From assembly GCA_030390025.1 (NCBI GenBank), contig CM059445.1, positions 58,032,001 through 58,096,000 of the forward strand: a DNA stretch of 64,000 nucleotides, in the 5' to 3' direction. Shown piece by piece: positions 14,100 through 34,143 of this stretch; the first letter of the stretch is position 1; each line of letters starts with the position of its first letter. This stretch comes from Squalus acanthias. Taxonomy: Eukaryota. Under the pieces are notes generated by a model. That model saw only the letters and a list, made by a program, of their open reading frames with translations. It was not told the DNA's origin and did no database searches. Position numbers and translations under genes: made by a program.

Positions 14100-14227
14100 C
14101 TATGGATCGCAGTGATCCTTTGCTTTGAGTCTGTGGAATACCAAGAGATACAGAACTGCAGACGATATAAGGGCGATGGCAAGCAGTGACCCCATAAACA
14201 TCATGCCAATCTTCAGCGCAGTCAACC
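14100..14227 (-). CDS. ZP-C mucin gene exon 6: transmembrane helix and short cytoplasmic tail
   Basis: Acceptor CTTTCTCTCCTAG|GG (phase 1); LTALKIGMMFMGSLLAIALISSAVLYLLVF then basic HRLKAK, DHCDP, TAG. Confidence 0.8.
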
Positions 14228-17200
14228 CTAGGAGAGAAAGAAAAGGAAAAGTTTGATTTTCATGGTTAATGTGCACATTTATAAGTCGGTGCTCCAAATT
14301 TTCGGGATGAGGTCTTGACAGGTGAAGCTCACCCCTTCCCCCCCTCCAGCCCCGATCACAACCCGGGGTTCTACCCCCTAGAACGCAACATGTGGAATTA
14401 ACTTCTGGGTAGGGTCGTGCGGGCTAAAAGCCCCTGGTACCTACTAAAGTTCCCATATGGCGAGGGTCTTACAGTAACCACATCAAAAATCAGGCCCAGA
14501 CGGAGGATAACCAGCCCCGAACAGGTTGCTCTTTCCTTAAGAAAAGAGGACAAAAGTGAGAAGTCGCACAACACCAGGTTATAGTCCAACAGCTTTATTT
14601 GAAATCACAAGCTTTCGGAGCGCTGCTCCTTCGTCAGGTGAAGGAGCAGCGCTCCGAAAGCTTGTGATTTCAAATAAAGCTGTTGGACTATAACCTGGTG
14701 TTGTGCGACTTCTCACTTTTGTCCACCCCAGTCCAACACCGGCATCTCCGCATCAAGAAAAGAGGAGGCTGAGAGGTGGCCTGATAGAGGTCTTTAAAAT
14801 TATGAATGGGGTTCGATAGGGTAGACGCAAGGAAGATGTTTCCACTTGTCGGAGGAGTCCAAAACTAGGGGACATAAATACAGATAGTCAATAATAAATC
14901 CAATAAGGAATTTAGGAGAAACTTCTTTACCCAGAGAATGGTGAGAATGTGGAACTCGTTACCACAGGGTGTAGTTGAGGCGAATAGCATCGATGCATTT
15001 AAGGGGAAGCTAGATAAGTACATGAGGGAGAAAGGAATAGAAGGTTGTGCTGATAGTGTGAGATGAAGAAGGGTGGGAGGAGGCTCGTGTGGAGCAGAAA
15101 CACCAACATGGACCTGTTGGGCCGTTTGGCCTGTTTCTGTGTTGTAAGTTCCATGAATTTCCACCCATTCTGCACCACGCTGGATGCACCTTCAGCTACG
15201 ACCTAATGGGCTAGGGGGCTGGGCTGCTACATCACTTGCCGACACCTAGAGCTCCCTTTCCCTTCAGTGCTGCCTGCCACTTCTTGCTGAGTTGCCCGTT
15301 CAACCGTGGCAAAGACTTGGCACTCAATGGACTGGATGGCCTTTTTCTCATTCCCAGATTTATGAGGTTGAGATGTCTCTAGAGGCTCTTCAAAGACTTT
15401 CTGAATTTTTGTCCCCCTGTCATGACACTTCCCTTCAATTGTGCGAATCCCCTTAAATTCCAGTGACACACGGATTTTCCTCTCCCACCTCTTGTGTCCT
15501 CCCAAGAACTATCTGAATCTGCGCAGTTGCTATCAAGAATTATGCAAGAGAGCTGAAAGTGGAAAAGTCAGTGTGAGCGATGCTTGACCTTCAGGGTGGG
15601 ATTTCTACCAGTTCTACATCTTCAGGCTAATTTAGATGAAAATCGGCCCCAGGATACTATTCTACCATGAAGTGCATCACAACCAAGCCTGATCCTGTCC
15701 TCATAGGTTAGCAAGGCGATAAAAAAAATGCAAACCAAGCACTAGGGTTTATTTCTAGAGGGATACAATTGAAAAGTACAGAAGTTATGCTAAACCTGTA
15801 TCGAACCTTGGTTAGACCACACGTGGAGTACTGCGTACAATTCTGGTCGCCATATTATAAAAAGCATATAGAGGCGGTGCAAAAAAGATTTACAAGGATG
15901 ATACCAGAAATGCGAAGATATACCCATCAGGAAAGGATGAACAGGCTGGGTCTCTTTTCTCTTGAAAAGAGAAGGCTGAGGGGGGTGACCTAATAGAGGT
16001 CTTTAAAATTATGAAAGGTTTTGATAGAGTGGATACAGAGAGAATGTTTCCACTTGTGGAGAAGAGCAAAACTAGAGGCCATCAATATAAAATAGTCACC
16101 AAGAAATCCAATAGGGGAATTCAGAAGGAACTTCTTTACCCAGAGAGTGGTGAGAATGTGGAACTCGCTACCACAGGGAGTGGTTGAAGCGAATAGTATA
16201 GATGCATTTAAGGGGAGGCTAGACAAACATATGAGGGAGAAGGGAATAGAGGGTTACACTGATAGAGTTAGATGAGGAAAGGACGGGAGGAGGCTCGAGT
16301 GGAGCGTAAACGCCGGCATGGCCTGTTTCTGTGCCGTATATCCTCTGTAATCTGACATCCACCCCTCCCAGCAGCAGTCACTAAGGTTACCAATTCTGGT
16401 TGGACGGATTCCTGGAGGTTTCATCACGTGACCTCCTGCCTCCAACCGCCCCACCCAGTCAAACAGCTGTTCTTCCCATCTCCACTATTTTCATAACTAA
16501 CGAACTAAAAGCGCGCAAAGAAAATGTAGAAAAGCACACAATACTTTTTCATTCCCGCTATGATTTTTCTCCCCGGGTGTTGCTGGCAGCAGTGGCCTGG
16601 AGATTGGTCTTTAATTCCTAGAGACTCCAGGGCAATCCTGGAGGGTTGGCAACCCGAGCAGTCACTGGATAGCAATCAGGAGCAGGAACCTTGGTTGACC
16701 TTTCCCTCTGCTAGATAAACTGTAGCGTCTCAATTCCTGCCCCGAGAACTCATAGAATTATAGAATGAAGCAGCACAGAAGGAGGCCATTCGGCCCATCG
16801 TGCCTGTGCCGGCTCTGTGAAAGAGCTCTCCGATTAGTCAGTGTCAGCTGGGTAGCACACTCGCCTCTGAGTCAGAAGGTTGTGGGTTCAAGTCCCACTC
16901 CAGGGACTTGAGCACAAAAAGCTAGGCTGACACTCCAGCACTGTACTGAGGGAGTGCTGCACTGTCCGAGGTGCTGTCTTTCGGATGAGATGTTAAACCG
17001 AGGCCCCGTCTGCTCTCTCGGGTGGATGTAAAAGATCCCAAGGCACTATTTCGAAGAAGAGCAGGGGCGTTAGTCCCGGTGTCCTGGCCAATATTTATCC
17101 CTCAATCCACATAACAAAAACAGATTTTCTGGTCAATATCACCTTGCTGTTTGTGGGAGCTTGCTGTGCGCAAATTGGCTGCCGCATTTCCCACATTACA

Positions 17201-34100: not shown

Positions 34101-34143
34101 ACTGAAGTAACATCCGGACTGTCAACAACAGAAGGATCAGCAT
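14100..34143 (-). CDS. Uncharacterised mucin-like, ZP-C-only type I transmembrane protein (6 coding exons, ~2,527 aa if three frame breaks are corrected; may be a pseudogene or contain assembly indels)
   Basis: Exons 34098-34143, 23449-30343, 23014-23247, 19741-19894, 17755-17884 and 14100-14227 all have GT/AG boundaries with compatible phases (1,2,2,0,1). Domain order: signal peptide, S/T/P-rich stalk, ZP-C, EHP, TM. Confidence 0.75.
14551..14754. mobile_element. Hairpin-shaped Penelope-like mini-insertion with hammerhead core, inserted in a CR1 fragment
   Basis: Perfect 85-bp inverted repeat 14548-14632 / 14640-14724 with a 7-nt loop and 30-nt tail; 12-bp TSD AAGAAAAGAGGA at 14539-14550 and 14755-14766. 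Confidence 0.8.
14605..14641 (-). ncRNA. Minimal type I hammerhead ribozyme motif
   Basis: Minus strand TCAC-CTGACGA-A-GGAGC-AGC-GCTCC-GAAAGCTT-GTGA: CUGANGA and GAAA cores, stem II GGAGC/GCUCC, stem I UCAC/GUGA, palindromic AGCU stem III. Confidence 0.7.
14767..15160 (+). mobile_element. CR1 LINE 3' fragment
   Basis: CR1 ORF2 C-terminus and 3' UTR. Confidence 0.75.
15703..16350 (+). mobile_element. CR1 LINE 3' fragment
   Basis: [19 protein letters not shown]. Confidence 0.8.
16841..17297 (+). mobile_element. DeuSINE inserted into a minus-strand CR1 (16748-17630)
   Basis: Full SINE flanked by TTAGTC on both sides; the CR1 3' UTR is continuous across it. Confidence 0.75.
17755..17884 (-). 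CDS. ZP-C mucin gene exon 5: last Cys, linker and external hydrophobic patch (EHP)
   Basis: TTTAAAG|GGC...CCTG|GTATTT; GCSEPTPYHMEETIRGGYRDTGNVVSFGPLHRAMEDRVDNGAP; VVSFGPL is a typical ZP EHP. Confidence 0.85.
18225..18956. mobile_element. GC-rich Harbinger-like MITE (left end degraded)
   Basis: GCGCCTCCCATTAGCGCC subterminal motif as in the other MITEs; right end GCAATTTCTGGCCC. Confidence 0.6.
19045..19580 (-). mobile_element. CR1 LINE 3' fragment
   Basis: [24 protein letters not shown] tail. Confidence 0.75.
19741..19894 (-). CDS. ZP-C mucin gene exon 4: C-terminal half of the ZP-C domain
   Basis: TTTCAG|G...AAG|GTGAGT; SLICRHVHLFQNGHSQAAKFTIQIFEMANYSSVYLHCKVSICLRNYSDCIK carries the ZP-C signatures NG-x-S..F-x-x-x-x-F and VYLHC-x-V-x-IC. 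Not in the ORF track. Confidence 0.9.
20820..21621. mobile_element. GC-rich non-autonomous DNA transposon (PIF/Harbinger-like MITE)
   Basis: Ends GGGGGGAAAATTCGGT / ACTGAATTTTCCCC, 3-bp TSD TAT; same family as 35177-36066 in the opposite orientation. Confidence 0.75.
21787..22105 (+). mobile_element. CR1 LINE 3' fragment
   Basis: Same subfamily as 251-549. Confidence 0.8.
22422..22456. repeat. (GACA)n(GAAA)n microsatellite at a SINE tail
   Basis: Visible tetranucleotide run. Confidence 0.85.
22445..22805 (-). mobile_element. Rearranged DeuSINE (minus-strand tail joined to plus-strand body)
   Basis: 22445-22635 is the reverse tail; 22636-22805 is the forward head/Deu domain. Confidence 0.6.
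23014..23247 (-). CDS. ZP-C mucin gene exon 3: N-terminal half of the ZP-C domain
   Basis: TTTGCAG|C...ACCAG|GTAAGG; GNYVVRMNL...EDLYVTVALETNSSRVILALPSCCLSPTSRPEESNTICCIFT matches the start of ZP-C (IHP-like strand, LYV, C-x-x-(S/T)P). Confidence 0.85.
23449..30343 (-). CDS. ZP-C mucin gene exon 2: 6.9-kb Ser/Thr/Pro-rich mucin-like exon with three +1 frame breaks
   Basis: Acceptor TTACCAG|GT at 30343. Consecutive S/T/P-rich ORFs 27834-30359, 27482-~27860, 26482-~27490 and 23358-~26570 tile the interval. Phase-2 donor CCAGA|GTATGA at 23449 (alternative AG|GTCCAA at ~23404). No recognisable transposon inside. Confidence 0.7.
30692..31143 (-). mobile_element. DeuSINE
   Basis: Same family motifs. 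Confidence 0.72.
31760..32137 (-). mobile_element. L2 LINE 3' fragment
   Basis: STIGGRAFSCLGPKLWNSLPKPLR. Confidence 0.75.
34098..34143 (-). CDS. ZP-C mucin gene exon 1: signal peptide
   Basis: ATG CTG ATC CTT CTG TTG TTG... = MLILLLLTVRMLLQS, donor CAG|GTAGGT (phase 1). Joins the next exon to give LQSGAEG-NENH, a plausible A-x-G signal peptidase site. Confidence 0.65.

What the first reader, a model, noticed from the sequence alone, without database searches (positions are those of the whole stretch)
14100..34143. Unnamed giant mucin-stalk, ZP-C-only membrane protein gene between TTC12 and ANKK1
Seen: six phase-compatible exons give signal peptide (MLILLLLTVRMLLQSGAEG), ~2,300 aa S/T/P-rich stalk, ZP-C (LYV..SCCLSP..NGHSQAAKFTIQIF..VYLHCKVSIC), EHP (VVSFGPL), TM and an 11-aa tail. 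Known: in human TTC12 and ANKK1 are neighbours in the NCAM1-TTC12-ANKK1-DRD2 cluster with no such protein-coding gene between them as far as I recall. Inference: an extra member of this conserved cluster, either lineage-specific or ancestral and lost in mammals, that is a very large O-glycosylated cell-surface protein of a family I cannot name.
Basis: partly seen in the sequence, partly recalled or inferred. Interest (0 to 1): 0.85.

Follow-up and report, generated by a model that had tools for sequence, protein, structure and literature searches.

The report
Unnamed vertebrate ZP-C membrane mucin gene
Between two well-known brain-cluster genes lies an old, undescribed gene, shared with fish, birds and reptiles, for a huge sugar-coated cell-surface protein anchored by half of an egg-coat-type domain, though this copy's reading frame is broken in four places.

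Summary
Its exon 2 holds 22 in-frame stops. A codon model shows three +1 frameshifts. Homology moves the exon 2 donor from 23449 to 23343 and adds a fourth. Read across them, the gene encodes about 2,560 residues: signal peptide, S/T/P-rich stalk, standalone ZP-C, EHP, transmembrane helix, short tail.

It is not lineage-specific. Exon 3 finds 37 representatives. All 26 named ones among 30 looked up are automatically named predictions from ray-finned fish, crocodilians, birds and lizards. Their tree follows the species tree. No mammal, amphibian or cartilaginous fish appeared, which is weak evidence. ZP-N is absent (0 of 27), a basic cluster precedes ZP-C (22 of 25), and the sequence is closer to uromodulin/GP2/ZPD than to betaglycan.

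Best reading: a non-polymerising membrane mucin in which ZP-C anchors a cleavable glycosylated stalk, possibly a stripped ohnologue of UMODL1. Whether the four shifts are assembly errors (about 0.55) or recent pseudogenisation (about 0.35) is unresolved. Synteny elsewhere is unchecked. No paper describing the family was found.

The parts
34098..34143 (-). Exon 1: start codon and most of a putative signal peptide, phase-1 donor
   Evidence: Best of 12 hydrophobic ATG-to-donor candidates, donor at the 99.5th percentile; resembles bird and crocodilian N-termini by eye. No signal-peptide predictor run.
23343..30343 (-). Exon 2 (7,001 nt): S/T/P-rich stalk, about 2,330 codons, broken by four +1 frameshifts
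   Evidence: S+T+P 33-34% in all four segments; 589 S/T, 27 N-glycosylation sequons, 4 Cys and 0 stops in 2,323 codons across the four segments; no interspersed repeat inside, against 31% repeat cover of the window; only a 47-bp, 2.2-copy tandem repeat.
27837..27868 (-). Interval holding frameshift 1 (+1)
   Evidence: ORF overlap; Viterbi position about 27854
27485..27489 (-). Interval holding frameshift 2 (+1); longest base run nearby is 2
26485..26573 (-). Interval holding frameshift 3 (+1)
   Evidence: Viterbi about 26562
23361..23383 (-). Interval holding inferred frameshift 4 (+1), which leads into the conserved end of exon 2
   Evidence: Frame translations; junction motif in 25 of 29 named homologues
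23394..23405 (-). RSKR, a furin-type consensus site near the stalk/ZP-C boundary
   Evidence: homologues carry a basic cluster nearby in 22 of 25 cases vs 160 of 2,159 background windows. The window's site lies roughly 8 residues further upstream than theirs.
23248..23342 (-). 95-nt phase-2 intron (revised)
   Evidence: two passerine models carry a 28-30-residue insertion at this very point, as expected if they read through an intron of similar size (inference)
23014..23247 (-). Exon 3: linker remnant, IHP strand and first half of ZP-C
   Evidence: Pfam PF00100; 37 phmmer hits, 34-55% identity
19741..19894 (-). Exon 4: second half of ZP-C
   Evidence: Pfam PF00100 E 7.8e-8; tblastn hits from all 29 named homologues
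17755..17884 (-). Exon 5: last ZP-C cysteine, EHP, juxtamembrane linker; no R-x-x-R site before the EHP
   Evidence: translation; family alignment
14100..14227 (-). Exon 6: transmembrane helix, short tail, stop
   Evidence: hydropathy; alignment
42646..62947 (-). Upstream neighbour TTC12, last 14 coding exons, intact
   Evidence: weak TPR matches on one exon; gene identity from recalled similarity to human TTC12
1614..3613 (-). Downstream neighbour ANKK1, coding exons 1-2, intact
   Evidence: kinase Pfam hits; no stop in 495 nt; naming rests on position and recalled sequence

Best explanation
This is the local copy of an ancient, apparently single-copy jawed-vertebrate gene for a type I membrane mucin-like glycoprotein with a standalone ZP-C domain.

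Shown: the architecture, the ZP-C fold, the absence of ZP-N, conservation from ray-finned fish to birds and lizards, a fast-evolving stalk, and a conserved basic cluster just before ZP-C.

Inferred: the protein goes to the cell surface, where the heavily O-glycosylated stalk extends the glycocalyx. A proprotein convertase cuts at the basic cluster and can shed the stalk. The ZP-C stays membrane-bound in the closed IHP/EHP state and does not form ZP filaments. It acts as the folded anchor and protein-binding module, much as SEA domains do in classical membrane mucins.

In this sequence the long form is interrupted by four +1 shifts. I think sequencing or assembly insertions are the likelier cause (about 0.55), ahead of recent inactivation (about 0.35) or use of a shorter splice form (about 0.10).
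For: Family: 37 hits, many 900-2,000 aa with the match about 230 residues from the C-terminus. Named members come from teleosts, paddlefish, crocodilians, birds and lizards. The tree recovers ray-finned fish (98/93) and sauropsids (100/99), with the window outside both.

Fold: the model of a teleost member (pLDDT 74.7) matches uromodulin ZP-C best (Foldseek E 5.6e-7; Z 13.8, rmsd 3.5, 147 aligned) and includes an EHP strand.

No ZP-N: 0 of 27 named homologues hit it in Pfam, and the last stalk cysteine in the window is at 25610, about 750 codons before ZP-C.

Stalk: S+T+P is 29-37% in 14 homologues, yet none of 29 gives a tblastn hit to the window's stalk, so composition is kept and sequence is not. 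Basic cluster in 22 of 25 vs 7.4% background.

For an artefact: all four shifts are +1; no nonsense codon in 2,323 codons; no repeat insertion in 7 kb; 25 of 27 near-invariant family positions kept (one search list read); intact splice sites.
Against: No expression, glycosylation, cleavage or localisation data exist for any member in what I could see. The basic cluster is missing in paddlefish, Dallia and Etheostoma (3 of 25), the rows are not phylogenetically independent, and the window's RSKR is offset from the homologues' position. Some ray-finned members have basic residues between ZP-C and the EHP, so release of ZP-C is possible there.

Against an artefact: TTC12, ANKK1 and the other five exons have 0 shifts in 2,722 nt, though P is 0.27 under a uniform error rate. 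Shift 2 is not in a long homopolymer. The lack of nonsense codons is weak (P 0.11-0.47 under neutral decay with assumed substitution:indel ratios). No cartilaginous-fish orthologue was recovered. The structure was predicted for a teleost member, not for the window's protein.
Confidence: 0.6

Rival explanations
1. The family is functional elsewhere, but this copy is a recent pseudogene: the four frameshifts are real mutations.
For: Four shifts in 7,001 nt vs none in 2,722 nt of other coding sequence. The window has the longest end branch in the tree (0.95). No close cartilaginous-fish orthologue was found. The conserved Trp at the end of the TM is replaced.
Against: All shifts have the same sign, whereas real indels usually favour deletions (general knowledge). 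No nonsense codon, no repeat insertion, all ten ZP-C cysteines and all splice sites intact. A long branch is expected for the only outgroup row. The word-index searches also missed known positives: eight ray-finned members share 5 words with exon 3 and were not returned.
Confidence: 0.35
2. The business end is a TGFBR3L-like co-receptor: after the stalk is cut off or spliced out, a ZP-C/TM stub binds a TGF-beta-family or other ligand, and the stalk is a removable shield.
For: TGFBR3L has signal peptide, single ZP-C, TM and short tail and is the inhibin B co-receptor (PMC8673766, passages). Short database models of this family exist (lizard isoform of 261 aa, icefish 234 aa with a hydrophobic N-terminus). 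Betaglycan ZP-C ranks third and fourth by structure (Z 11.0 and 10.9).
Against: The family profile scores uromodulin/ZPD/GP2 at 35-38 bits and betaglycan at about 18; with the larger profile betaglycan is not listed. Structural identity to betaglycan is 14-16%, against about 33% for TGFBR3L. The short models may be annotation truncations.
Confidence: 0.15
3. The ZP-C co-assembles into, or caps, an apical ZP matrix (tectorial/cupular, egg-coat or uromodulin-like filaments) and so tethers the mucin stalk to it.
For: C. elegans LET-653 localises and functions through its ZP-C (PMC7665627, abstract and passages). The closest solved relatives are filament formers. The segment before the IHP aligns with uromodulin from model residue 19, so part of the interdomain linker is kept.
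Against: No ZP-N, and no conserved cleavage site between ZP-C and EHP in the window or in birds, so the EHP should stay bound.
Confidence: 0.15
4. It is the non-mammalian orthologue of an already named mammalian gene such as mouse Zpld2 / human ZPLD2P.
For: Mouse Zpld2 has a large initial coding exon (bioRxiv 10.1101/2021.03.09.434414, one passage).
Against: No mammalian protein among 26 named representatives. As recalled, Zpld2 lies in a different chromosomal neighbourhood. No Zpld2 sequence was available, so this was not tested.
Confidence: 0.07

Closest known systems
Uromodulin / GP2 / ZPD group (polymerising ZP-module proteins)
   Same: Best sequence and structure matches for ZP-C; Cys5, Cys7, CysA, CysB and Cys8 in register (alignment); IHP and EHP strands.
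   Different: No ZP-N, EGF or D8C domains; canonical Cys6 position is not a cysteine; extra cysteines at family positions 30, 80, 94, 95 and (window, sauropsids) about 103; giant stalk; TM instead of GPI.
UMODL1 (olfactorin)
   Same: Type I membrane ZP protein. RefSeq auto-names five short members 'uromodulin-like 1'. UMODL1 and RIPK4 both map to 21q22.3 (PMC12779367, gene table), and RIPK4 is the structural counterpart of ANKK1 (PMC9573974, passages). The 11q23/21q paralogon itself is recalled.
   Different: Lacks EMI, WAP, FN3, EGF, SEA (domain list from PMC8874799) and ZP-N. Ohnology is a hypothesis; no UMODL1 sequence could be placed in a tree.
TGFBR3L
   Same: The known vertebrate protein with a single ZP-C, TM and short tail (PMC8673766).
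   Different: TGFBR3L derives from betaglycan and is 297 aa in mouse. This family is uromodulin-like in sequence and has a 700-2,300-residue stalk in its long forms, so it looks like an independent ZP-N loss.
Nematode standalone ZP-C proteins (T01D1.8, F46G11.6, CUTL-19)
   Same: ZP-N lost, ZP-C conserved, changed disulfides (PMC7456536, passages).
   Different: Nematode-specific origins; no giant mucin stalk described in the passages seen.
Membrane mucins (MUC1, MUC16, MUC17; recalled)
   Same: Signal peptide, long S/T/P-rich exon, one membrane-proximal folded domain, TM, short tail; some members are auto-named mucin-5AC-like or mucin-17-like.
   Different: No tandem repeats, no SEA/NIDO/AMOP/VWD, moderate S+T (25%), ZP-C as the anchor.

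Membership tests
Canonical ZP-module proteins | ZP-C immunoglobulin-like fold | tested here: met
   Pfam; model of a teleost member vs PDB
Canonical ZP-module proteins | ZP-N domain with four cysteines directly upstream | tested here: not met
   0 of 27 named homologues hit ZP-N (no positive control run); no cysteine in the last ~750 stalk codons of the window
Canonical ZP-module proteins | IHP and EHP strands | tested here: met
   strands 34-42 and 174-182 in the model, aligned to uromodulin over model residues 19-185
Canonical ZP-module proteins | Furin-type site between ZP-C and EHP | tested here: not met
   absent in window exon 5 and in bird rows; basic residues only in some ray-finned rows
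Canonical ZP-module proteins | Three standard disulfides (Cys5-7, Cys6-8, CysA-B) | tested here: inconclusive
   five of six cysteines in register, Cys6 not; pairings could not be read from the model
Canonical ZP-module proteins | Filament formation | not testable with these tools
   needs expression and electron microscopy
UMODL1 | EMI, WAP, FN3, EGF, SEA domains and full ZP module | tested here: not met
   Pfam finds none of these in 27 named homologues or the window's ORFs
UMODL1 | Sister relationship of the ZP-C (ohnology) | not testable with these tools
TGFBR3L / betaglycan | Single ZP-C + TM + short tail | tested here: met
TGFBR3L / betaglycan | ZP-C closest to betaglycan (about 33% identity) | tested here: not met
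   18 bits vs 35-38 for uromodulin/ZPD/GP2; 14-16% identity
TGFBR3L / betaglycan | Binds inhibin or TGF-beta | not testable with these tools
   no ligand sequence could be supplied
Membrane mucins | Long S/T/P-rich region in a large exon | tested here: met
   33-34% S+T+P over ~2,300 codons; 29-37% in 14 homologues
Membrane mucins | Tandem-repeat PTS domain | tested here: not met
   only one 47-bp repeat in exon 2
Membrane mucins | SEA or NIDO-AMOP-VWD domain | tested here: not met
   no Pfam hit
Membrane mucins | Dense O-glycosylation | not testable with these tools
   inferred from composition only
ZPLD2 (Gm7534) | Orthology by tree and synteny | not tested
   no sequence available; one passage seen

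The most novel reading that the evidence does not exclude
An undescribed class of vertebrate membrane mucin in which a standalone ZP-C with rewired disulfides replaces SEA. It arose as the whole-genome-duplication twin of UMODL1 next to ANKK1, is a fifth ancestral member of the NCAM1-TTC12-ANKK1-DRD2 cluster, was lost in mammals, and is switched by convertase cleavage from a glycocalyx shield into a small ZP-C receptor.
Probability: 0.2. Interest if true: 0.75.

Novelty: new variant of a known kind. Interest (0 to 1): 0.5.

Why it matters
Standalone ZP-C domains were reported as new in nematodes in 2020 (PMC7456536), and TGFBR3L is the vertebrate case I could document (PMC8673766). A second vertebrate family, from the uromodulin side and conserved from ray-finned fish to birds, gives a natural test of what ZP-C does without ZP-N. 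It also has an unusual cysteine pattern. It adds a gene to a much-studied cluster usually described with four members, and it is a candidate mammalian gene loss. The proteins already sit in databases under misleading automatic names, so the novelty lies in recognising the family, not in the sequence. The broken frame in this copy lowers the value of this particular locus until reads are checked.

Tried and rejected
Word-index protein searches found nothing: exon 3 against 136-2,000 aa (46 candidates), the stalk against 1,876-5,000 aa (7,993 candidates), and exon 3 against 1,343-4,274 aa (14 candidates). They missed known positives, so they are weak evidence about sharks. The representative library returned nothing over 1,997 aa, so a 2,500-residue orthologue may not be in it (inference).

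An internal intron removing 27837-26574 was considered and disfavoured: the interval is coding in two other frames, has the same composition and carries no repeats. Skipping exon 2 altogether is out of phase. Three weak phase-2 donors upstream of the first shift could give a short in-frame form; unproven.

Single-sequence PDB search with exon 3 gave nothing useful. NCBIfam: 0 of 7. Rfam: 0 matches in the window. ESM Atlas gave only generic ZP-C clusters and auto-names. The script line for residues after the last cysteine failed (pattern error); that point was read instead. The TTC12 chain failed on a wrong anchor and was redone.

Literature: searches showed no listing that describes this gene; six LOC identifiers occur in 0 papers. 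Only main texts of an open-access library were searched and no supplement was read, so expression tables may hold these genes. Mota et al. 2012 on cluster evolution was not held.

No complex prediction was run. No vertebrate genome or RNA-seq collection was available, so synteny and splicing stayed unchecked.
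Full report
Observation. With a small matrix trained on the window's own TTC12 and ANKK1 sites, all ten splice sites rank at or above the 94th percentile. Exons 3 and 4 match consecutive parts of Pfam ZP-C, exon 5 has the EHP-like motif, and exon 6 has a transmembrane stretch. TTC12 lies upstream (14 exons, 1,535 nt, open) and ANKK1 downstream (two exons, 495 nt, open). Both names rest on recalled similarity plus weak Pfam hits.

The model is not intact. Exon 2 as given has 22 stops. 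Between 27837 and 26574 the S/T/P-rich reading runs in two other frames. A codon model trained on the outer parts scores each piece as coding in its own frame, with +1 shifts near 27854, 27490 and 26562. Three ORF pieces tile the gap; 0 of 2,000 resamplings needed so few. Homologues expose a further problem. Of 29 named ones, 25 have an L-x-G-type motif at the end of this exon: 23 of them 10-11 residues before the first ZP-C cysteine, two passerine models about 40 residues before, and 4 lack it. In the window the matching text lies one frame over, directly before a GT at 23343. This gives a 95-nt intron and a fourth +1 shift at 23383-23361. Read across four shifts the product would be 2,562 residues.

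Family. Exon 3 against 1.84 billion representatives gave 37 hits at E up to 0.001. I looked up 30: 26 are named and 4 are unnamed; 7 were not looked up. All 26 are automatic predictions from teleosts, paddlefish, crocodilians, birds and lizards, labelled uncharacterised, mucin-5AC-like, mucin-17-like, uromodulin-like 1 or GP2-like. A tree of 29 named ZP-C regions plus the window (unnamed rows and redundant isoforms left out) recovers ray-finned fish (98/93) and sauropsids (100/99), with the window outside both on a long branch; the root is unknown. This is what one orthologous family would give. No mammal, amphibian or cartilaginous fish appeared. That is weak evidence: the query was 77 residues, the three word-index searches missed known positives, and no hit exceeded 1,997 aa.

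Anatomy. ZP-C is the only extracellular Pfam domain above its curated cut-off; ZP-N is hit in 0 of 27 named homologues (no positive control). The window's stalk has four cysteines, none in the last ~750 codons. Stalks are 29-37% S+T+P, but none aligns to the window's stalk. A basic cluster precedes the junction motif in 22 of 25 homologues, against 160 of 2,159 background windows; the window has RSKR at 23405-23394, somewhat further upstream. No such site is conserved between ZP-C and the EHP. A model of the Hoplias member matches uromodulin best, then ZP2 and betaglycan ZP-C. By sequence, uromodulin, ZPD and GP2 score about twice the bits of betaglycan. Canonical Cys6 is missing. The cysteine near position 103 is present in the window and in sauropsids (12 of 15 by pattern; the other three by eye) and in 0 of 14 ray-finned rows. 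Cys95 is kept in all 15 sauropsids and changed or deleted in 4 of 14 ray-finned rows. I infer a 95-103 bond, and the N-terminal Cys30 as the new partner of Cys8; neither was shown.

How it probably works (inference). Filament formation in ZP proteins is attributed to ZP-N and to release of the EHP by cleavage (PMC7456536, passages). Neither is available here, so the ZP-C should stay closed and membrane-bound. The stalk should be O-glycosylated and extended, and the conserved basic cluster suggests it can be shed. The simplest picture is a membrane mucin with ZP-C as its folded anchor (0.6). Rivals are a TGFBR3L-like co-receptor stub (0.15; PMC8673766, passages), incorporation into a ZP matrix through ZP-C as in LET-653 (0.15; PMC7665627, abstract and passages), and orthology to Zpld2 (0.07; bioRxiv 10.1101/2021.03.09.434414, one passage).

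State of this copy. For error: four of four shifts are +1, there is no nonsense codon in 2,323 codons, no repeat in 7 kb against 31% window cover, and ZP-C and splice sites are intact. For real decay: no shift in 2,722 nt of other coding sequence (P 0.27 under a uniform rate), shift 2 is not in a homopolymer, the nonsense test is weak (P 0.11-0.47), and no close orthologue was found. I put error at 0.55, recent pseudogene at 0.35 and a functional short splice form at 0.10. Only reads can decide.

Origin and context. The four-gene cluster is described as conserved across vertebrates (PMC7177674, PMC8861280, PMC5900934; passages); none of the passages mentions an intervening gene, and the primary paper was not held. 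UMODL1 and RIPK4 share band 21q22.3 (PMC12779367, table rows), RIPK4 resembles ANKK1 (PMC9573974, passages), and RefSeq's nearest name for short members is uromodulin-like 1. With the recalled 11q23/21q paralogon, this suggests a stripped ohnologue of UMODL1, whose other domains (PMC8874799, passages) are absent here. This was not tested by tree. A stork model fuses this ZP-C to an FDX-ACB domain, so the bird neighbourhood may differ.

Novelty. Passages of PMC6262864, PMC4948705 and PMC13361971 and the listings showed no description of this family; supplements were not read. It is a new variant of a known kind: a ZP-domain protein with an unreported architecture, present in databases but apparently unrecognised. 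Interest 0.5.

Noticed in passing
P0018 (Mycteria americana model, KAK4809570.1): ZP-C exons are fused to a C-terminal FDX-ACB domain, hinting that FDXACB1 neighbours the gene in birds; could be a gene-model error.
   Followed up: partly
P0034 (Pogona isoform X2, 261 aa), P0060 (Champsocephalus, 234 aa), P0002 (Hoplias, 251 aa): Short stalk-less models of the family exist; P0060 begins with a hydrophobic N-terminus about 50 residues before ZP-C. They may be real short forms or truncations.
   Followed up: no
P0020, P0030 (passerine models): Both carry a 28-30-residue insertion exactly at the exon 2/3 junction, which looks like read-through of a short intron with a donor the predictor missed.
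   Followed up: partly
window 42646-62947 (-): TTC12 has a 64-nt exon at 51392-51329 and several in-frame alternative acceptors at 51119-51080 for the next exon.
   Followed up: partly
window 55024-55434 (+): 137-codon ORF in a TTC12 intron with no Pfam match; probably repeat-derived.
   Followed up: no
window about 35000-37500 and 51600-53600: GC-rich, CpG-rich interspersed repeats produce several long spurious ORFs on both strands; the immediate upstream region of exon 1 is not a CpG island.
   Followed up: no
window 12091-13092 (-): Candidate polyadenylation signals 1.0-2.0 kb downstream of the stop.
   Followed up: no
P0036: A 1,848-aa hit matched five times over query residues 10-38 (E 1.2e-4); probably a repeat protein matched by chance. 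Not looked up.
   Followed up: no
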